From positions 1 through 13,411 of IMG/VR virus record IMGVR_UViG_2548876950_000004: a stretch of 13,411 bases of DNA; one strand, given 5' to 3'. Both the position numbers and the translations under genes were made by a program. Of this stretch, positions 2,127 to 13,167 are shown in pieces (position 1 is the stretch's first letter; each line of letters begins with the position of its first letter). Source of the DNA: a virus (lineage: Duplodnaviria; Heunggongvirae; Uroviricota; Caudoviricetes). The notes beneath the pieces were generated by a model that was given only the letters and a program-made list of their open reading frames with translations, searched no databases and was not told the DNA's origin.

Positions 2127-2909
2127 ATGGCTTCAAACTGGATAAAGCTCGAGGTTATTACGCCGGATAAGCCGGAAATATTCAGGCTTGCTGAGATTCT
2201 GAATATTGATCCAGATGCCGCATTAGGGAAGGTTATTCGCTTCTGGGCATGGGCGGATCAACAAATGATAGACGGTAATGCAGATTGTAACGCTCGCGGC
2301 GTTACAAAAAGTGCAATAGATCGCATCACTTTTATGGCTGGTTTTGCTGATGCGTTAATTCAGGTTGGATGGCTGATCGAAAATGACGGTGGGCTTTCTC
2401 TACCTAACTTTGAACGTCATAACGGGAAAAGCTCTAAAAAACGGGCGGTTACAAACGAGCGAGTAACAAAAATACGCGAACTGCAACGAAAAGGTAACGC
2501 TGCCAGCGTTACACAAACGGATCAAAAAGCGTTACCAGAGGAAGAGGAAGATATAAATACTGATCTCCCCCTAAATCCCCCTCGCCAAAAACGAGCGTCT
2601 AAAAAATTCGAGCCGGAGGCTATCGAGCTGCCTGACTGGTTGCCGGAAACACTCTGGCATGAGTGGTTTCAGTTCAGGCAGGCATTGCGAAAACCGATTC
2701 GAACGGAGCAGGGCGCTAACGGGGCGATACGGGAACTGGAAAAATTCCGTCAGCAGGGTTTTACACCTGAGCAGGTGATTCGACACAGCATCGCCAATGA
2801 ATACCAGGGCCTGTTCGCGCCGAAAGGTGTTCGGCCTGAGACGTTGCTCCGACAGGTTAACACCGTCTCGTTGCCGGACAGTGCGATCCCGCCAGGCTTC
2901 AGGGGGTAA
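2127..2909 (+). CDS. Replication initiation/primosomal protein, DnaT-like C-terminus (YdaU-like), 260 aa
   Basis: AGGTGA ribosome-binding site; sits directly upstream of the DnaC-like gene, as in the dnaT-dnaC and lambda O-P arrangements; C-terminal W/F-rich segment DWLPETLWHEWFQFRQALRKP; gene body carries repeated palindromes. Confidence 0.55.
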   Translation: MASNWIKLEVITPDKPEIFRLAEILNIDPDAALGKVIRFWAWADQQMIDGNADCNARGVTKSAIDRITFMAGFADALIQVGWLIENDGGLSLPNFERHNGKSSKKRAVTNERVTKIRELQRKGNAASVTQTDQKALPEEEEDINTDLPLNPPRQKRASKKFEPEAIELPDWLPETLWHEWFQFRQALRKPIRTEQGANGAIRELEKFRQQGFTPEQVIRHSIANEYQGLFAPKGVRPETLLRQVNTVSLPDSAIPPGFRG

Positions 2910-7805: not shown

Positions 7806-7909
7806 GGTAAAAACGGTTTGCGGTAAAGCGAGAGTTAAGTAGAATTGCTGCGGGTGCTTGAGGCTATCTGCCTCGGGCATGCCACCGTAAGGCAGACAGA
7901 GAAAAGCCC

Positions 7910-7975
7910 CAGTTAACATTACGCGTCCGGCAAGACGCTTAACATTAATCTGAGGCCATATCTATGCTCTACACA
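7910..7975 (-). ncRNA. Expected position of the Sok-like antisense RNA of the hok locus (approximate, not delimited)
   Basis: Placed by analogy with hok/sok architecture, where the antisense RNA overlaps the leader and upstream start region. Promoter and 3' end could not be pinned from sequence. Confidence 0.25.
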
Positions 7976-8020
7976 CGTAGGTTAGCCTCTTACGTGCCGA
8001 AAGGCAAGGAGAAGCAGGCT

Positions 8021-8176
8021 ATGAAGCAGCAAAAGGCGATGTTAATCGCCCTGATCGTCATCTGTTTAACCGTCATAGTGACGGCACTGGTAACGAGGAA
8101 AGACCTCTGCGAGGTACGAATCCGAACCGGTCAGACGGAGGTCGCTGTCTTCGTAGACTACGAATCTGAGAAGTAA
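8021..8176 (+). CDS. hok: Hok/Gef-family type I toxin, 51 aa; in-frame upstream start at 7964 gives a 70-aa Mok-like form
   Basis: MKQQKAMLIALIVICLTVIVTALVTRKDLCEVRIRTGQTEVAVFVDYESEK has the hallmark Hok/Gef transmembrane segment and TRKDLCEV...GQTEVA motif; AGGAG upstream of ATG 8021. Confidence 0.8.
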   Translation: MKQQKAMLIALIVICLTVIVTALVTRKDLCEVRIRTGQTEVAVFVDYESEK

Positions 8177-9335: not shown

Positions 9336-9625
9336 TGGTGGATTTACGTAAAGCGGCGCGGGGGCAGATGTGCACCGTCAGAATTCCTGGCTACTGCAAT
9401 CACGATCCGGAAACGTCTGTGCTGGCGCATTACCGACTGGCGGGAACGTGCGGAACAGCGATAAAGCCACACGATATGCAGGCAGCGATTGCCTGTAGCT
9501 CGTGCCACGATTTAATCGACGGGCGGGTAAAAACCGGCGATTACACCAAAGAAGAATTACGCCTGATGCATGCAGAAGGTGTTTTTCGCACACAAGAAAT
9601 CTGGAGAAAGGAGGGATATTTATGA
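9335..9625 (+). CDS. YbcO-like (DUF1364) cysteine-rich protein, putative nuclease, 96 aa
   Basis: Size and several cysteines (CTVRIPGYC...CGT...ACSSCHD) fit the YbcO family that sits before Q in lambdoid prophages; translationally coupled on both sides. Confidence 0.55.
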   Translation: MVDLRKAARGQMCTVRIPGYCNHDPETSVLAHYRLAGTCGTAIKPHDMQAAIACSSCHDLIDGRVKTGDYTKEELRLMHAEGVFRTQEIWRKEGYL

Positions 9626-10176
9626 TTTACCCAACGAATACAGGAAAAAGCGGAGAACACCTTCGTCTCACCACGCTGGAAAGTGTCTGGATTCAGGGAA
9701 AACTACGTATGTGGGGGCGCTGGTCGTATATTGGCGGCGGTAAGACGGGAAATATGTTTAACCAGTTGCTGACCTCTAAAAAGCTAACAAAAACGGCAAT
9801 TAATGAGGCGCTCCGGAGGATGAAAAAAGCAGGTCTGGACAAACCTGAACTTGAGGCTTTTTTGCGGGATATGATCAACGGCAAGCAAAAAAGCTGGCTG
9901 GTGCATTGTACTGATGCAGAGGCGTTATGCATTGATCGGGTGATTAGTGAAGTGCTGGCAGAACACCCAGGATTGATTTGTATCCTCCGGCAAAGATATG
10001 AAGGGCGGGGGATGAGTAAGCGCAAAATGGCTGAATTGCTAAATGATGCACACCCTGAGTGGTGTTTTCGGACGTGCTGCAGTCGGGTAGATGTATGGCT
10101 AAATCTTGCTGAATATATGCTCTATCTGCCGATGCGTGATGCATTCTCTTCCGGGTATTTAAAAACTGTCTGTTGA
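9622..10176 (+). CDS. Putative late-gene antiterminator Q, 184 aa
   Basis: Called mainly from position: last gene of the nin-like block, immediately followed by a strong promoter overlapping its stop and a short terminated leader. Strong AAAGGAGGG ribosome-binding site. Sequence family not confirmed. Confidence 0.5.
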   Translation: MIYPTNTGKSGEHLRLTTLESVWIQGKLRMWGRWSYIGGGKTGNMFNQLLTSKKLTKTAINEALRRMKKAGLDKPELEAFLRDMINGKQKSWLVHCTDAEALCIDRVISEVLAEHPGLICILRQRYEGRGMSKRKMAELLNDAHPEWCFRTCCSRVDVWLNLAEYMLYLPMRDAFSSGYLKTVC

Positions 10177-10202
10177 CTCAATCTGTTATCCGGGGCTATA
10201 TT
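10173..10202 (+). promoter_or_regulatory. PR'-like late promoter (TTGACT-N18-TATATT)
   Basis: -35 TTGACT at 10173-10178 overlaps the stop of the upstream gene; -10 TATATT at 10197-10202. Confidence 0.55.
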
Positions 10203-10264
10203 CCTCACGCGCCAGCAAAATCTGGCGTCGGGATTAGGAACCCCGGATAGAGACCGCGACAGAC

Positions 10265-10287
10265 ACACGCCGCGAGCGTGTTTTTTA
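10265..10287 (+). terminator. tR'-like intrinsic terminator ending a short (about 80 nt) leader RNA
   Basis: Hairpin ACACGC-CGCGA-GCGTGT followed by TTTTTTATT, about 60-80 nt downstream of the PR'-like promoter. Confidence 0.65.
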
Positions 10288-10449
10288 TTGTCGTATGCAC
10301 GCGCACATCTGAATTATGGTGGGGCGTATGGGGGAGCTGAAAAGCTCGCCGGTTGGTTTCCCGGTAGTTCCTAACCCTGTACGTCTCACCACCCGATGAT
10401 TAGGAACCTGACGGTGGTGATGGTTTAGAAACCACCAGAGGGCGTCATT

Positions 10450-11031
10450 ATGACAACTCAAATTTCTGTTGAAACTCTCTCCCCGATCACCCATAACCAG
10501 ATTCCTGTTATTACCACCGAACTTTTGGCGCAGTTGTACGGTGCTGGAGTTAAGAACATTCAAAATAACTACGCCAGAAATGCTGAGCGCTTTATTGAAG
10601 GAAAGCATTTTTTCAAAGTGGCTGGCGATGCCCTGAAAAATTTGCGGGTAGCTTTAAACTACTCACAAAATTTGCAACCATCTTTAAGAGGGTTACAAAT
10701 TTCCCCGAAAGCCCGCTCCCTCATCCTCTGGACAGAACGCGGAGCAGCCCGTCATGCCAAAATGCTGGAAACCGATCAGGCGTGGGATGTGTTCGAAAAG
10801 CTGGAAGACTGCTATTTCAGACAAAAGGATCCGTCAGCGCCAGTTTCATGCCAGAAAAGTTACGACACGCGAGTTCTCTGTTATCAGAGAGGCGGTGTCA
10901 CTGTTTCCACAATTCAGTTACGGGATGATGATATTGTTATTTCCCTTGAGTCATGGCTGGAACTGGCGAGAGCCAATGGTTGGTTTGTTGTTCGCAGAGA
11001 TAAACTGGTGGAAAGGTTGATGCAGCTTTAA
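10450..11031 (+). CDS. ORF6N/KilA-N-like domain protein (antirepressor-type regulator), 193 aa
   Basis: N-terminal IPVITTELLAQLYGAGVKNIQNNYARNAERFIEGKHFFKV matches the recalled ORF6N consensus (LAELYG...RN..RF...F). Confidence 0.55.
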   Translation: MTTQISVETLSPITHNQIPVITTELLAQLYGAGVKNIQNNYARNAERFIEGKHFFKVAGDALKNLRVALNYSQNLQPSLRGLQISPKARSLILWTERGAARHAKMLETDQAWDVFEKLEDCYFRQKDPSAPVSCQKSYDTRVLCYQRGGVTVSTIQLRDDDIVISLESWLELARANGWFVVRRDKLVERLMQL

Positions 11032-11607: not shown

Positions 11608-12321
11608 ATGGCTGTTGTCTGTTCAGTTATCATGGTTTGCTCCCCAATTAATATTTTTCTTGAAAAGGATACGTTGTCACTTAAGCCAGGCTCAGTCGTT
11701 CTGGCCACCAAATGCATCAGGGAGCTTTTCCTTATGCATTATGGCAAAGTTAAAATTGTCGATATAAGCGAATCCGTCGTAAGTCAATATCTGGAAAGTC
11801 AGCATAAGCTGACGAGGACTCGTCTGACTGACATTCCGCTTTACCTGTTGCTGGAACCCAACAATCCTGCGTTGGCTGCGGCTTTAATTACCAGCCAGGG
11901 ATTTTCCGGAGAGGTCACGGATATGTTTCTTATGATGGCCTGCCTGTCTCTGTTTGAAACAGATGAACGGATGTCATTGTTTTTAAGTGGATGTTTATCC
12001 AGCATAAGTGCCAAAGTCAGGGCGATAATTCAGACAGATATATCAGCAAGCTGGACGCTTGGTGCGATTGCTCTACAGTTGCATATGAGTGAGAGTTTGT
12101 TAAAGACAAAACTGAAAAATGAAGGGGGCATGTTCAGTCGCTTGTTGCTGGAAGAGCGGATGCGTGTTGCTGTAAATATGTTATGTTCCCGGCATGGATA
12201 TGGACAGGCTGTAGCAGAAAAATGCGGTTATTCAAGCAGGTCCTACTTTATTTCTGTATTTCACCGCTATTATGGCTTCCCGCCAGACAGATATGTATCC
12301 AGGCAAGGGCTTGATTATTGA
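11608..12321 (+). CDS. AraC/XylS-family transcriptional regulator, 237 aa
   Basis: C-terminal double-HTH typical of the family (SWTLGAIALQLHMSESLLKTKLK...YGQAVAEKCGYSSRSYFISVFHRYYGFPP); located in the cargo slot between Q and the lysis genes. Confidence 0.75.
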   Translation: MAVVCSVIMVCSPINIFLEKDTLSLKPGSVVLATKCIRELFLMHYGKVKIVDISESVVSQYLESQHKLTRTRLTDIPLYLLLEPNNPALAAALITSQGFSGEVTDMFLMMACLSLFETDERMSLFLSGCLSSISAKVRAIIQTDISASWTLGAIALQLHMSESLLKTKLKNEGGMFSRLLLEERMRVAVNMLCSRHGYGQAVAEKCGYSSRSYFISVFHRYYGFPPDRYVSRQGLDY

Positions 12322-12349
12322 TTTTCATCTGATTATTATTTTTTGGCTC

Positions 12350-12425
12350 GGCCCTTTAGCTCAGTGGTGAGAGCGAGCGACTCATAATCGCCAGGTCGCT
12401 GGTTCAAATCCAGCAAGGGCCACCA
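12350..12425 (+). tRNA. tRNA with CAU anticodon (Ile2/Met type, ileX-like)
   Basis: Cloverleaf by hand: acceptor GGCCCTT/AAGGGCC, anticodon loop CTCATAA, T-loop TTCAAAT, 3' CCA. Close to the host ileX sequence as I recall it. Confidence 0.7.
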
Positions 12426-12426
12426 A

Positions 12427-12503
12427 CCGCCACTAGCTCATCAGGAAAGAGCGTCAACCCTTTAAGTTGAGTGTGCGAGGTTCGAGTCCCCGGTGGCGGT
12501 CCA
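12427..12503 (+). tRNA. Atypical tRNA-like gene, anticodon UUU (Lys-like), possibly a pseudo-tRNA
   Basis: Acceptor CCGCCAC/GTGGCGG with CCA end, D-arm and TTCGAGT T-loop present, but C at position 33, a C1:G72 start and one T-stem mismatch. Confidence 0.45.
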
Positions 12504-12505
12504 GT

Positions 12506-12581
<76 letters not shown>

Positions 12582-12584
12582 TAT

Positions 12585-12659
<75 letters not shown>

Positions 12660-12866
12660 GTTAGAGTCTTTCAGTCTGCGATGATGGGAAATCCCGGAGT
12701 GACTGAAAGACGTTTAGGTTATGAATGATCGCTTTTTTTTGCAAAATTGCTGTGCAGAAATACTAACCTTCGGGCAGGCGATCATTCATAAGCACTCTGC
12801 TTTTATTCCGATTAACTGTGGGTGGTTTGTTGGATAGAGTGCTTTCCTGACTGTAGATCCAATTTC

Positions 12867-12891
12867 GCCCGCTTTTGCGGGCTTTTCTTTT
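12867..12891 (+). terminator. Intrinsic terminator downstream of the tRNA cluster
   Basis: Hairpin GCCCGC-TTTT-GCGGGC followed by TTTTCTTTT. Confidence 0.7.
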
Positions 12892-12951
12892 CAAATCCCT
12901 TTCATCTCTCAGTGTAAAACTACGCCATCCGTTATTTGCGGAGGTGAGGCT

Positions 12952-13167
12952 ATGAAATCCATGGACAAAATTTCAACGGGCATTGCCTACGGCACCTCCG
13001 CAGGCAGTGCTGGCTACTGGTTTTTACAGTGGCTTGATCAAGTCAGTCCGTCACAGTGGGCTGCGATTGGTGTACTGGGGAGTCTGATTCTGGGCTTCCT
13101 GACTTATCTGACAAATCTGTACTTCAAAATCAGAGAAGACAAGCGTAAGGCTGCACGGGGAGAGTAA
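12952..13167 (+). CDS. Phage 21-type class II holin (pinholin) with dual-start motif, 71 aa
   Basis: [27 protein letters not shown]...[13 protein letters not shown] closely matches S21 as I recall it, including the M-K-S-M dual start (12952 and 12961); GGAGGTGAGG ribosome-binding site. Confidence 0.85.

What the first reader, a model, noticed from the sequence alone, without database searches (positions are those of the whole stretch)
12665..12791. Two long inverted repeats forming a structured region between the tRNAs and the terminator
A 12-bp stem (12665-12676 pairing with 12700-12711) encloses a 23-nt loop with a small internal hairpin. It is followed by a 14-bp inverted repeat (TTATGAATGATCGC at 12719-12732 pairing with 12778-12791) whose loop starts with T8 and contains more small hairpins. 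Long perfect stems like these are unlikely by chance and may be a processing element, a small RNA or a recombination site. No credible ORF is present.
Basis: seen in the sequence. Interest (0 to 1): 0.4.

Follow-up and report, generated by a model that had tools for sequence, protein, structure and literature searches.

The report
Structured RNA trailing prophage tRNA genes
The two inverted repeats are part of a roughly 190-base, three-hairpin RNA, conserved and so far unannotated, that sits directly after the last tRNA of a self-contained tRNA operon in many E. coli-type prophages; it is a well-supported new RNA family whose job is still unknown.

Summary
The 14-bp repeat is exact. A third hairpin (12792-12842) was missed.

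The region is a conserved plus-strand RNA structure. Across 34 distinct copies from Enterobacteriaceae prophages, 59 predicted pairs are 97.9% canonical, against 38-47% when partners are slid. Eleven pairs carry two-sided compensatory changes. G-U cells outnumber A-C cells 250 to 18.

It has three separable modules: a hairpin with a k-turn-type GAUGA/GA internal loop, a Y-shaped hairpin with an invariant 9-nt loop, and a bulged hairpin.

It starts 1 nt after the CCA of tRNA-Gly(UCC) in most copies. It lies downstream of a conserved sigma-70-type promoter in front of the tRNA cluster. Usually an intrinsic terminator follows it. It always lies between the Q antiterminator gene and the lysis genes.

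About 10% of complete E. coli genomes carry it, never annotated. There is no Rfam match, no conserved ORF, and no similarity to Pas sRNAs or put RNAs.

Best reading: it is the processed 3' trailer of a phage tRNA operon, a stable non-coding RNA with conserved recognition surfaces and an unknown partner. The main rival is a purely cis-acting end-protection or processing role.

The parts
12311..12339 (+). Sigma-70-type promoter of the tRNA operon (TTGATT-17 nt-TATTAT), followed by a G+C-rich stretch up to the first tRNA
   Evidence: Promoter scan, 9 of 12 matches. The same position in about 45 distinct related loci holds TTGCAA/TTGCAG/TTGCGT, a 17-nt spacer, TATTAT/TATCAT and a G+C-rich segment 8-9 nt before the tRNA. 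Predicted only, not measured.
12350..12659 (+). Four tRNA genes: CAU (called Met by ARAGORN, Ile by PGAP in related loci), Lys-UUU, Thr-UGU, Gly-UCC
   Evidence: ARAGORN; Rfam tRNA hits; PGAP annotation of homologous loci.
12660..12665 (+). Short A/U-rich linker (GUUAGA) between the CCA end of tRNA-Gly and the first hairpin; likely site of the endonuclease cut that frees the tRNA 3' end (inferred)
   Evidence: The element starts 1 nt after the tRNA-Gly end in most of 104 loci. The cleavage itself is inferred from what is known of E. coli tRNA 3' processing; it was not tested.
12666..12711 (+). Module SL1. Lower stem 12666-12676/12701-12711; bulged U12677; pairs 12678-12679/12699-12700; asymmetric 5+2 internal loop GAUGA (12680-12684) / GA (12697-12698) of k-turn type; cap stem 12685-12688/12693-12696; variable loop 12689-12692
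   Evidence: helices 1 and 2 are 97.5% and 98.5% paired, with two pairs showing two-sided changes. The internal-loop bases are invariant or nearly so in A3 and A4. The covariance model finds one copy per locus, on the plus strand at 52-78 bits against 15-21 bits on the opposite strand.
12719..12791 (+). Module SL2, Y-shaped. Lower stem of 14-15 bp (12719-12733/12777-12791); inner hairpin 12736-12743/12753-12760 with invariant 9-nt loop AAAUUGCUG (12744-12752); small hairpin CC-UUCG-GG (12767-12774)
   Evidence: helix 3 has five pairs with two-sided changes. The sequence TTTTTGCAAAATTGCTGTG is invariant in nearly all copies.
12792..12842 (+). Module SL3. Stem 12792-12799/12835-12842; 7-nt bulge 12800-12806; stem 12807-12811/12830-12834; 2+2 internal loop; stem 12814-12817/12824-12827; loop GUGGGU 12818-12823. 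In this copy A12790-A12791 can pair instead with U12843-U12844
   Evidence: (I10), 14, 37, 38: helix 6 has four pairs with two-sided changes and at least four different stem versions among lineages. GGGTGGTTTGTTGG is highly conserved.
12867..12890 (+). Intrinsic terminator (GCCCGC-UUUU-GCGGGC followed by UUUUCUUUU) ending the tRNA operon and trailer transcript
   Evidence: Terminator scan. A terminator lies 5-35 nt after the element in 35 of 53 distinct downstream flanks by a strict script, and several of the other flanks visibly hold weaker hairpin plus T-run versions. At least five unrelated terminator sequences are used.
12952..13167 (+). Phage-21-type class II holin, first gene of the lysis cassette (context, not part of the RNA)
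   Evidence: Pfam PF04971, E = 1.4e-35. The first sizeable ORF downstream in related loci includes several unrelated proteins that look like membrane proteins and are probably other holin types; their Pfam identity was not checked.

Best explanation
The region 12660-12850 encodes a structured non-coding RNA that forms the 3' trailer of an autonomous prophage tRNA operon.

Shown here:
- The plus-strand RNA folds into three independently folding modules: SL1, a hairpin with a k-turn-type loop; SL2, a Y-shaped hairpin with an invariant 9-nt apical loop; and SL3, a bulged hairpin.
- The stems are maintained by compensatory changes, while many unpaired bases are invariant.
- The element begins directly after the CCA of the last tRNA.
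- A conserved sigma-70-type promoter precedes the tRNA cluster, and an intrinsic terminator usually follows the element.

Inferred:
- In a lysogen the unit promoter-tRNAs-trailer-terminator is transcribed on its own.
- tRNA 3'-end processing (RNase E-type cleavage in the A/U-rich linker just after CCA) releases a stable RNA of about 230 nt, running from about 12660 to about 12890 and capped at the 3' end by the terminator hairpin.
- The conserved unpaired surfaces (k-turn loop, AAAUUGCUG loop, G/U-rich SL3 tip) are recognition sites for a trans partner, either a host or phage protein or another RNA.
- During Q-dependent late transcription the same structure would also become the 5' end of the severed lysis and late-gene mRNA.

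The identity of the partner and the physiological effect are unknown.
For: - Structure and strand: RNAalifold on 34 distinct copies gives 59 pairs, 11 of them with two-sided changes. Cells are 97.9% paired against 38-47% for slid partners, and no shuffle of 500 reaches the observed pairing or covariation score. Window versus HK639: 19 of 59 pairs differ, 8 on both sides, and all 19 stay canonical. G-U/U-G cells number 250 against 18 A-C/C-A.
- Thermodynamics: z = -5.2.
- Recognition surfaces: invariant GAUGA/GA internal loop, invariant SL2 apical hairpin and loop, conserved SL3 tip.
- Operon membership: the element starts 1 nt after tRNA-Gly(UCC) in most of 104 loci and 0-3 nt after it in most copies that lack SL1. 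SL1 also follows other tRNAs (L201 and the second unit in L212). A conserved promoter lies upstream of the tRNA cluster. Terminators of unrelated sequence follow. No promoter-like site lies inside the element.
- Spread: 536 of 5426 complete E. coli genomes, plus Shigella, Enterobacter, Phytobacter, Yokenella and Citrobacter prophages.
- Not coding: and length variation of -2 to +2 in the T-run.
Against: - No expression, processing or stability data were available. The promoter, terminator and cleavage site are predictions.
- Most two-sided changes separate two main lineages, so the number of independent events is modest. The count of pairs with two-sided changes is not by itself above the shuffle control (11 against 10.0).
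- Modules can be lost (SL1 or SL3 absent in some copies). This fits independent modules but also fits dispensable hairpins.
- No complementary target was found in the window, and no partner protein co-occurs.
- The constant position upstream of lysis genes fits a cis role equally well.
Confidence: 0.5

Rival explanations
1. A purely cis-acting processing and end-protection element. The hairpins placed immediately after the tRNA serve two ends. They guide or delimit the endonuclease cut that matures the tRNA 3' end. After that cut they form a 5'-terminal structure that shields the downstream lysis and late-gene mRNA from 5'-end-dependent decay during Q-antiterminated transcription. In the lysogen they would also shield the operon's 3' region. 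No trans partner beyond the host RNases is needed.
For: - A stable hairpin lies within 0-6 nt of the tRNA CCA end in most copies, and within 0-9 nt in most copies that lack SL1, where SL2 takes that place. SL1 also follows three different tRNAs.
- The element is always between Q and the lysis cassette, whatever the holin type.
- The stems covary.
- Established knowledge, not tested here: 5'-terminal stem-loops stabilise E. coli mRNAs, and phages T7 and lambda use hairpins as processing and stability signals.
Against: - A simple protective hairpin does not need an invariant k-turn-type loop, an invariant 9-nt apical loop or a conserved SL3 tip.
- An intrinsic terminator separates the element from the lysis genes, and in some phages several hundred bases with two further terminators intervene.
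- Three elaborate modules are more than end protection requires.
Confidence: 0.27
2. An Hfq- or ProQ-associated base-pairing small RNA of the kind already found in the same 'moron' slot of pathogenic E. coli prophages (Pas sRNAs, anti-sRNAs). It would regulate host or phage mRNAs through one of the conserved loops. This is a special case of the best explanation.
For: - It occupies the same genomic slot between Q and the holin gene as the Pas sRNAs and the EHEC anti-sRNAs (PMC8550237; bioRxiv 10.64898/2026.05.13.724894; PMC4104026).
- A terminator hairpin with a U-rich tail is preceded by an A/U-rich single-stranded linker.
- The 9-nt apical loop is invariant.
Against: - There is no sequence similarity to the PasA, PasC or PasD2 loci of E2348/69.
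- It is much longer and more structured than those 51-84-nt RNAs.
- The single-stranded linker before the terminator is the least conserved part.
- No complementary site was found in the window.
- There is no Rfam match.
Confidence: 0.13
3. A cis-acting transcription-control RNA. Either it is a processive antiterminator like HK022 put (or Bacillus EAR) that lets polymerase read through the downstream terminators, or it is a ligand-sensing riboswitch controlling the terminator at 12867-12890.
For: - Adjacent stem-loops lie just upstream of one or more intrinsic terminators and a long operon.
- HK639, which carries the element, is a phage known to use a put-like RNA elsewhere (annotation).
Against: - There is no similarity to the HK022 genome or to the annotated HK639 putL-like RNA.
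- The modules are separable and larger than the roughly 70-nt two-hairpin put RNA (PMC9378689).
- The terminators differ completely among copies, with no conserved alternative pairing.
- These phages already encode Q.
- Read-through from a constitutive tRNA promoter into the holin gene would be harmful to lysogens (inference).
Confidence: 0.05
4. A DNA-level feature: a recombination or attachment site, a protein-binding palindrome (TTTTGCAAAA), or a conserved 'linker' that promotes mosaic exchange between lambdoid phages.
For: - It lies at a mosaic boundary between unrelated Q genes and unrelated holins.
- The 3' part of tRNA-Gly is retained even where the tRNA is truncated.
- A perfect 10-bp palindrome in SL2 is invariant.
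Against: - The pairing constraint is strand-specific: 250 G-U against 18 A-C cells.
- Compensatory changes keep the helices.
- The covariance model scores the plus strand 52-78 bits against 15-21 bits for the minus strand.
Confidence: 0.04
5. A small protein-coding gene, for example the 38-codon ORF 12721-12837 or the 13-codon ORF starting at 12725.
For: An ATG ORF of 38 codons exists in the window, and a short peptide motif (FCKIAV) is shared with HK639 in one frame (my own reading).
Against: - An indel between the lineages changes the frame and the C-terminus: 38 aa against 27 aa, with a TTG start in HK639.
- The T-run inside the ORF varies by -2 to +2 bases among otherwise near-identical copies.
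- The start codons are buried in a 14-bp stem.
- The substitutions follow base-pairing rather than codon periodicity.
Confidence: 0.01

Closest known systems
RNAs derived from tRNA-operon trailers and spacers in E. coli (RtT RNA of the tyrT operon; the 3'ETS-leuZ sponge of glyW-cysT-leuZ)
   Same: The RNA lies in the transcribed non-tRNA part of a tRNA operon, would be released by tRNA processing, and ends at the operon terminator. This is the closest match in how it is probably made.
   Different: It is phage-borne, much more elaborately structured, and has three conserved modules. There was no Rfam hit to RtT or any other family, even at E <= 10. A sponge or regulatory activity is untested. 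What I say about RtT and 3'ETS rests on my own knowledge.
Phage T4 'species 1' and 'species 2' stable RNAs in the T4 tRNA gene cluster
   Same: They are stable structured RNAs of about 120-140 nt, co-transcribed and co-processed with phage tRNAs, and their function is still unknown (my own knowledge).
   Different: They belong to a virulent T-even phage and sit inside the cluster rather than as a terminal trailer. No sequence comparison was made here.
ROOL and GOLLD RNAs
   Same: They are structured non-coding RNAs of phages and prophages, 'often near tRNA islands', with unknown function (PMC12286853).
   Different: They are hundreds of nucleotides longer (many GOLLD RNAs exceed 800 nt), have pseudoknotted folds and form multimeric cages. 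No Rfam hit in this window. The present RNA is about 190 nt and is found only in Enterobacteriaceae.
Prophage small RNAs of the Q-to-holin 'moron' slot (PasA/PasC/PasD; anti-sRNAs AgvB/AsxR)
   Same: They occupy the same slot downstream of the Q antiterminator gene and upstream of the holin and lysozyme genes in lambdoid prophages, and they end in a terminator (PMC8550237; 10.64898/2026.05.13.724894; PMC4104026).
   Different: They are 51-84 nt, Hfq-dependent, and PasA is read from the strand opposite the holin gene. There is no sequence similarity. They are not described as adjoining a tRNA.
HK022 put / HK639 put-like antiterminator RNAs
   Same: They are adjacent stem-loops in a lambdoid phage transcript upstream of terminators. 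HK639 carries both a put-like RNA and this element.
   Different: put is about 70 nt with two hairpins and lies downstream of the early promoters (PMC9378689). There is no sequence similarity. The HK639 record annotates the put-like RNA at 34187-34312 and nothing at the element.
Kink-turn (k-turn) RNA motif (Kt-7, box C/D, U4 5' stem-loop)
   Same: SL1 has a Watson-Crick stem ending in C-G, a 3-nt bulge (GAU), tandem G.A/A.G (GA opposite GA), and then a stem opening with a variable non-Watson-Crick position. This is the sequence signature of a standard k-turn (my own knowledge of the motif).
   Different: Only the sequence pattern and its conservation were checked. The kinked 3D geometry and any binding protein are untested, and E. 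coli has no known L7Ae-family protein.

Membership tests
Any Rfam 15 family (including RtT, GOLLD, ROOL, STnc100, riboswitches, ribozymes) | Score at or above the family's gathering threshold, or at least a suggestive E-value | tested here: not met
   The gathering search of the whole window finds only sok, isrK, C4, c4-a1b1 and four tRNAs. The E <= 10 search of 12600-12960 gives only noise, best 19.8 bits against thresholds of 35-99.
Conserved structured RNA (generic test) | Base pairs maintained by compensatory and wobble changes across homologues, on one strand | tested here: met
   59 pairs, 97.9% paired against 38-47% when slid; 11 pairs with two-sided changes; 250 G-U against 18 A-C cells.
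tRNA-operon trailer RNA (3'ETS / RtT type) | Lies between the last tRNA of an operon and the operon terminator, with no promoter or terminator in between | tested here: met
   It starts 1 nt after the tRNA-Gly CCA. The terminator is at 12867-12890. No promoter-like site lies inside. A conserved promoter lies upstream of the cluster. All of these are sequence predictions.
tRNA-operon trailer RNA (3'ETS / RtT type) | Released as a discrete stable RNA by RNase E / tRNA processing | not testable with these tools
   No transcript data were available.
HK022-type put antiterminator RNA | Sequence or structure homology to putL/putR: about 70 nt, two adjacent hairpins | tested here: not met
   BLAST against the whole HK022 and HK639 genomes finds only the element itself and terminator-like fragments. 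The architecture is three separable modules of 46, 73 and 51 nt.
HK022-type put antiterminator RNA | [quoted passage not shown] | tested here: not met
   It lies in the late region between Q and the holin gene.
HK022-type put antiterminator RNA | Renders RNA polymerase terminator-resistant in cis | not testable with these tools
   This needs transcription assays.
Pas sRNAs / EHEC anti-sRNAs | Sequence similarity to PasA, PasC or PasD | tested here: not met
   blastn with word size 7 against the E2348/69 loci holding PasD2-PasA and PasC gives only chance hits of 10-36 nt. The PasD1 locus itself was not fetched. The published PasA and PasD1 fragments (supplement) do not resemble the element on my reading.
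Pas sRNAs / EHEC anti-sRNAs | Position between the Q antiterminator gene and the holin/lysozyme genes of a lambdoid prophage | tested here: met
Pas sRNAs / EHEC anti-sRNAs | Hfq-dependent stability and Hfq-mediated target pairing | not testable with these tools
   No interaction data exist for a strain that carries the element.
Kink-turn motif | Watson-Crick C-stem, 3-nt bulge, tandem sheared G.A / A.G, then an NC-stem, with the G and A bases conserved | tested here: met
   C12679-G12699; bulge G12680 A12681 U12682; G12683 and A12684 opposite A12698 and G12697; then U12685.G12696 and three G-C pairs. The GA/GA bases are kept in 33 of 34 full-length copies of A3 (L151 is the exception) and in 21 of the 22 distinct SL1 sequences of A4 (again all but L151), including those of L201 and L083; the second-unit SL1 in L212 keeps them too. 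The position next to them varies: U.G, U.U, A-U, A.G.
Kink-turn motif | Tightly kinked three-dimensional geometry, or binding by a k-turn protein | not testable with these tools
   This needs structure probing, crystallography or cryo-EM, or binding assays.
Intrinsic (Rho-independent) terminator, for the feature after the element | G+C-rich hairpin followed by a T-run | tested here: met
   12867-12882, 6 G-C pairs, 4-nt loop, then TTTTCTTTT. Analogous terminators occur in most homologues.

The most novel reading that the evidence does not exclude
The trailer RNA may be an active partner of the tRNA cluster in phage-host conflict rather than a by-product. The cluster it travels with (CAU, a hypervariable second tRNA, Thr-UGU, Gly-UCC) overlaps the tRNAs reported as preferred targets of the P2 OLD tRNase, a system that excludes lambdoid phages. 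Its second slot changes anticodon between phages, as expected in an arms race. A k-turn-bearing, multi-module RNA made in the same transcript could act as a decoy, inhibitor or sensor for a tRNA-targeting nuclease or for a host RNA-processing enzyme. That would make it a new kind of RNA-based counter-defence element.
Probability: 0.1. Interest if true: 0.8.

Novelty: new member of a known kind. Interest (0 to 1): 0.5.

Why it matters
If it is real as an RNA, this is an undescribed structured RNA family carried by about one in ten sequenced E. coli strains and by related enterobacterial prophages. It lies in a region (Q to holin) that has been mined repeatedly for small RNAs.

It adds a temperate-phage, enterobacterial example to a long-standing puzzle: phage tRNA clusters come with conserved non-coding RNAs of unknown function (T4 species 1 and 2, ROOL, GOLLD). 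This one sits in an organism where genetics, RNase mutants, Hfq/ProQ profiling and defence-system assays are routine, so the question becomes directly testable.

It also gives annotators a covariance-model-ready alignment and a defined promoter-tRNA-trailer-terminator unit.

Tried and rejected
- Rfam at gathering thresholds and at E <= 10: nothing for the element.
- Promoter inside the element: none by scan. By eye, TTGCAA-16 nt-TACTAA in the SL2 apical region lacks the essential last T of a -10 hexamer, and a start there would leave out the covarying 5' arms. Rejected.
- Small ORFs on both strands: not conserved in frame or length, and the T-run length varies.
- Pas sRNA identity: rejected by BLAST against the E2348/69 loci.
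- put-like RNA: rejected by BLAST against HK022 and HK639 and by architecture.
- Riboswitch-style alternative pairing with the terminator: the terminators are unrelated among copies, so no conserved competing helix exists.
- A closing helix 12660-12664/12847-12851 appears in the single-sequence fold. It is not conserved in HK639-type copies, so I dropped it.
- Search for sites in the window complementary to the invariant SL2 loop or the SL3 loop: no perfect match other than the element's own complement; the one-mismatch matches are scattered and uninformative (13 vs 6.1 expected for the SL2-loop complement, reached by 3 of 200 shuffles; 12 vs 7.8 for the SL3-loop complement).
- Covariance-model search for extra SL1 copies in 48 loci, including the whole HK022 and HK639 genomes: one per locus, except a second tRNA-linked unit in a Yokenella prophage.
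- The genome-contig scan with the 19-mer also returned about a dozen non-enterobacterial hits (Acidobacteriota, Bacteroidia and others). None of them aligned to the element apart from a single 29-nt fragment (L219, E about 1e-5) that I treated as chance.
- Literature searches for a described RNA at this position found none.
Full report
**1. What is in the sequence**

The window is part of a lambdoid prophage of E. coli. It is 100% identical over the queried 301-base stretch (12655-12955) to NZ_CP148401.

From left to right the relevant stretch holds:
- a Q-type antiterminator gene, 9502-10176 (DUF1133 / Phage_antitermQ);
- an isrK / c4-a1b1 / C4 antisense-RNA module, 10196-10396;
- an ORF6N-domain gene and an AraC-family gene, 11608-12321;
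- four tRNA genes, 12350-12659;
- the region of the finding;
- an intrinsic terminator, 12867-12890;
- a phage-21-type holin gene, 12952-13167.

A third inverted repeat, 12790-12798/12836-12844, was not reported.

Only eight local inverted repeats of at least 11 nt exist in the whole window. The plus strand of 12660-12895 folds far better than shuffled sequence (z = -5.2).

**2. It is conserved, and conserved as an RNA structure on the plus strand**

- The element occurs in 536 of 5426 complete E. coli genomes, and the feature column under the match reads 'none' in every listed row.
- It occurs in a few sequenced coliphages. One is HK639, at 76% identity.
- Scans of IMG/VR and of one genome per species added about 100 copies. 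Apart from a single 29-nt fragment treated as chance, every genome-collection hit that aligned to the element was in Enterobacteriaceae: Escherichia, Shigella, Enterobacter, Phytobacter, Yokenella and Citrobacter.

An alignment of 34 distinct full-length copies (A3) gives an RNAalifold consensus of 59 pairs in seven helices. Pair counts on that alignment:
- 97.9% of cells are canonical pairs, against 38-47% when the 3' partners are slid by 1-3 columns.
- Eleven pairs have two-sided changes, against 1-6 in the slid controls.
- No shuffle of 500 reaches the observed pairing or covariation score.

Between the window and HK639, 19 of the 59 pairs differ, eight of them on both sides, and all 19 remain canonical. 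Helix 6 of the third hairpin exists in at least four different but self-complementary versions.

G-U/U-G cells outnumber A-C/C-A cells 250 to 18. A covariance model of the first hairpin scores the plus strand at 52-78 bits and the minus strand at 15-21 bits. The constraint therefore acts on the transcript of the plus strand, the strand of the tRNAs and of the late genes.

One caveat: most two-sided changes separate two main lineages, so independent events are fewer than cells. The bare count of such pairs is not above the shuffle control.

**3. Anatomy**

- **SL1 (12666-12711).** A 13-pair stem is interrupted by one bulged U. Then comes an asymmetric 5+2 internal loop, GAUGA opposite GA, then a 4-bp cap with a variable tetraloop.
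  - The layout is a C-G pair, a three-base bulge, GA facing GA, and then a variable non-Watson-Crick position: U.G here, and U.U, A-U or A.G elsewhere. This is the sequence signature of a standard kink-turn.
  - The GA/GA bases are kept in all but one copy.
  - The motif assignment is my inference from the sequence. The 3D kink is untested.
- **SL2 (12719-12791).** A 14-15-bp stem carries two branches. One is an 8-bp hairpin with an invariant 9-nt loop, AAAUUGCUG. The other is a small CC-UUCG-GG hairpin.
- **SL3 (12792-12842).** An 8-bp stem, a 7-nt bulge and two short stems, with a conserved G/U-rich tip.

Unpaired columns are on average somewhat more variable than paired ones (mean entropy 0.44 against 0.30). 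Even so, the loops named above are invariant.

The modules are separable:
- Some copies lack SL1, and SL2 then abuts the tRNA.
- Some lack SL3.
- L083 and a second unit in a Yokenella prophage keep SL1 and the SL2 lower stem but carry a different SL2 top.

**4. Context: the 3' trailer of an autonomous tRNA operon**

- In most of 104 loci the element starts 1 nt after the CCA of tRNA-Gly(UCC). In copies without SL1 it usually starts 0-9 nt after the preceding tRNA. SL1 also follows a tRNA(CAU) in L201 and another tRNA in L212. Where the tRNA is truncated (HK639, L002, L004), its 3' part is still there.
- A promoter-like site lies 8-9 nt upstream of the first tRNA. It has TTGCAA or a near variant, a 17-nt spacer, TATTAT or TATCAT, and then a G+C-rich segment. 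It is conserved across about 45 distinct upstream sequences that otherwise differ.
- Downstream, an intrinsic terminator follows within 5-35 nt in 35 of 53 distinct downstream flanks by a strict script. At least five unrelated terminator sequences are used.
- No promoter-like site lies inside the element.
- The whole unit sits between different Q genes and different holin genes. This is the slot known to accept 'moron' insertions (PMC4104026).

**5. What it is not**

- No Rfam family matches, even at E <= 10.
- No ORF is conserved. The 38-codon ORF of the window becomes a 27-codon TTG ORF with a different end in HK639, and the T-run inside it varies by -2 to +2 bases among close copies.
- The Pas sRNAs of EPEC and the EHEC anti-sRNAs occupy the same slot. 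They are short and unrelated in sequence, and PasA is read from the opposite strand.
- The HK022 put RNA is a two-hairpin element of about 70 nt next to the early promoters (PMC9378689). The element matches neither HK022 nor the putL-like RNA annotated in HK639, and the HK639 record annotates nothing at the element.
- Because the terminators differ completely between copies, a riboswitch-like competing helix is unlikely.

**6. How it most likely works**

Shown here: a plus-strand RNA with three conserved hairpin modules, placed between the last tRNA and the terminator of a unit that has its own predicted promoter.

Inferred:
- In lysogens the unit is transcribed on its own.
- The endonuclease cut that matures the tRNA-Gly 3' end falls in the A/U-rich linker at 12660-12665. 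It releases an RNA of about 230 nt that ends at the terminator.
- The invariant unpaired bases are contact surfaces for a partner.

I put 0.5 on this 'discrete stable RNA with a trans partner' reading. A base-pairing sRNA is a special case of it. I put about 0.27 on a purely cis role, in which the hairpins serve as a guide for tRNA 3' processing and as a 5' cap for the severed late mRNA during Q-dependent transcription.

The two readings are not exclusive. They are separable by comparing loop-only with stem-only mutants and by complementation in trans. Antitermination or riboswitch roles, a DNA-site role and a coding role are each unlikely, for the reasons in section 5.

**7. Comparison with what is known, and novelty**

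By mode of production the closest things are the RNAs of E. coli tRNA-operon trailers and spacers (RtT, 3'ETS-leuZ) and the T4 species 1 and 2 RNAs. By context the closest are ROOL and GOLLD, phage non-coding RNAs 'often near tRNA islands' whose function is unknown (PMC12286853). None is related in sequence or fold.

I therefore file the element as a new family within a known kind: phage tRNA-associated structured RNAs. It is not a new kind of system.

**8. An observation that could raise its importance**

- The accompanying tRNAs are CAU (Ile2-like), a second slot that changes anticodon from phage to phage, Thr-UGU and Gly-UCC.
- These are rare-codon tRNAs, which is the ordinary explanation.
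- Thr(UGU) and Gly(UCC) are also among the preferred targets reported for the P2 OLD tRNase, and that work reports that phage tRNAs rescue phages from this defence (bioRxiv 10.64898/2026.07.10.737580).
- Whether the trailer RNA takes part in that conflict is pure speculation at present. I put the probability at about 0.1.

Noticed in passing
window 12427-12503; the corresponding slot in loci L003, L015, L029, L057, L097, L168, L195 and others: The second tRNA of the cluster is hypervariable between otherwise similar prophages. ARAGORN calls it Lys-UUU (this window), Arg-UCU, Phe-AAA, Leu-UAA, a 'Stop'-UUA (ochre-suppressor-like) anticodon in L195, and several tRNAs with odd anticodon loops ('???'). 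The flanking CAU, Thr-UGU and Gly-UCC tRNAs stay constant.
   Followed up: partly
window 12350-12659: The tRNA set includes Thr(UGU) and Gly(UCC), two of the five tRNAs reported as preferred targets of the P2 OLD tRNase (bioRxiv 10.64898/2026.07.10.737580). The same tRNAs are also the classic rare-codon set (AUA, AAA/AGA, ACA, GGA), so either explanation may apply.
   Followed up: partly
window 12350-12425: ARAGORN calls the CAU tRNA tRNA-Met, while PGAP annotates the homologous genes as tRNA-Ile. It has a paired G1-C72 end and, from my recollection of the E. coli ileX sequence, looks like an Ile2 (lysidine-type) tRNA rather than an initiator.
   Followed up: no
window 12300-12349 and about 45 related loci: A conserved sigma-70-type promoter (TTGCAA-like, 17-nt spacer, TATTAT/TATCAT) with a G+C-rich segment before the transcription start lies upstream of the tRNA cluster. 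It resembles stable-RNA promoters under growth-rate control.
   Followed up: partly
window 10196-10396 and 10450-11031: Directly after the Q-like gene lie Rfam hits c4-a1b1, isrK and C4 antisense RNA, followed by an ORF6N-domain gene. The arrangement may be an immunity/antirepressor module like P1 immI or the Gifsy-1 isrK region, inserted in the late leader (my reading; not tested).
   Followed up: no
window 7852-8026: A strong Rfam hit to sok (112.6 bits) overlaps the start of a 70-codon ORF at 7964-8176. This suggests a hok/sok-type toxin-antitoxin locus inside the prophage.
   Followed up: no
window 11608-12321: An AraC-family regulator gene (HTH_AraC, HTH_18) ends about 30 nt before the tRNA promoter. 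It is a prophage-borne transcription factor of unknown target.
   Followed up: no
window 12733-12740: The T8 run at the start of the SL2 interior varies from 6 to 9 T (with or without a C) among copies that are otherwise about 98% identical. This looks like slippage-prone length variation at the junction of the Y-shaped hairpin.
   Followed up: partly
L004 2029-2454 (NCTC 13148); also L037, L006 and L010: An HNH endonuclease gene sits between a tRNA-Asn and the truncated tRNA-Gly that precedes the element. Sequence resembling a tRNA 5' half lies just before the ORF. This looks like a homing-endonuclease insertion in the tRNA cluster.
   Followed up: no
L212 (Yokenella regensburgei) 17-62 and 2163-2294, minus strand: One prophage region carries two tRNA-linked units about 2.1 kb apart. 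One has SL2 and SL3 directly after a tRNA. The other has SL1 after a different tRNA, followed by the alternative SL2 version seen in L083.
   Followed up: partly
window 12937-12946 and 12993-13002: A 10-bp perfect inverted repeat pairs the holin Shine-Dalgarno region (TGCGGAGGTG) with codons 14-17 of the holin gene. It may be a translational control structure of the dual-start kind.
   Followed up: no
L228 (phage HK639) 44331-45164: Between Q and the holin gene, HK639 has four annotated terminators, a tRNA-Asn and a truncated tRNA-Gly. The record annotates a putL-like RNA and an 'M3-like RNA' elsewhere but nothing at the element.
   Followed up: yes
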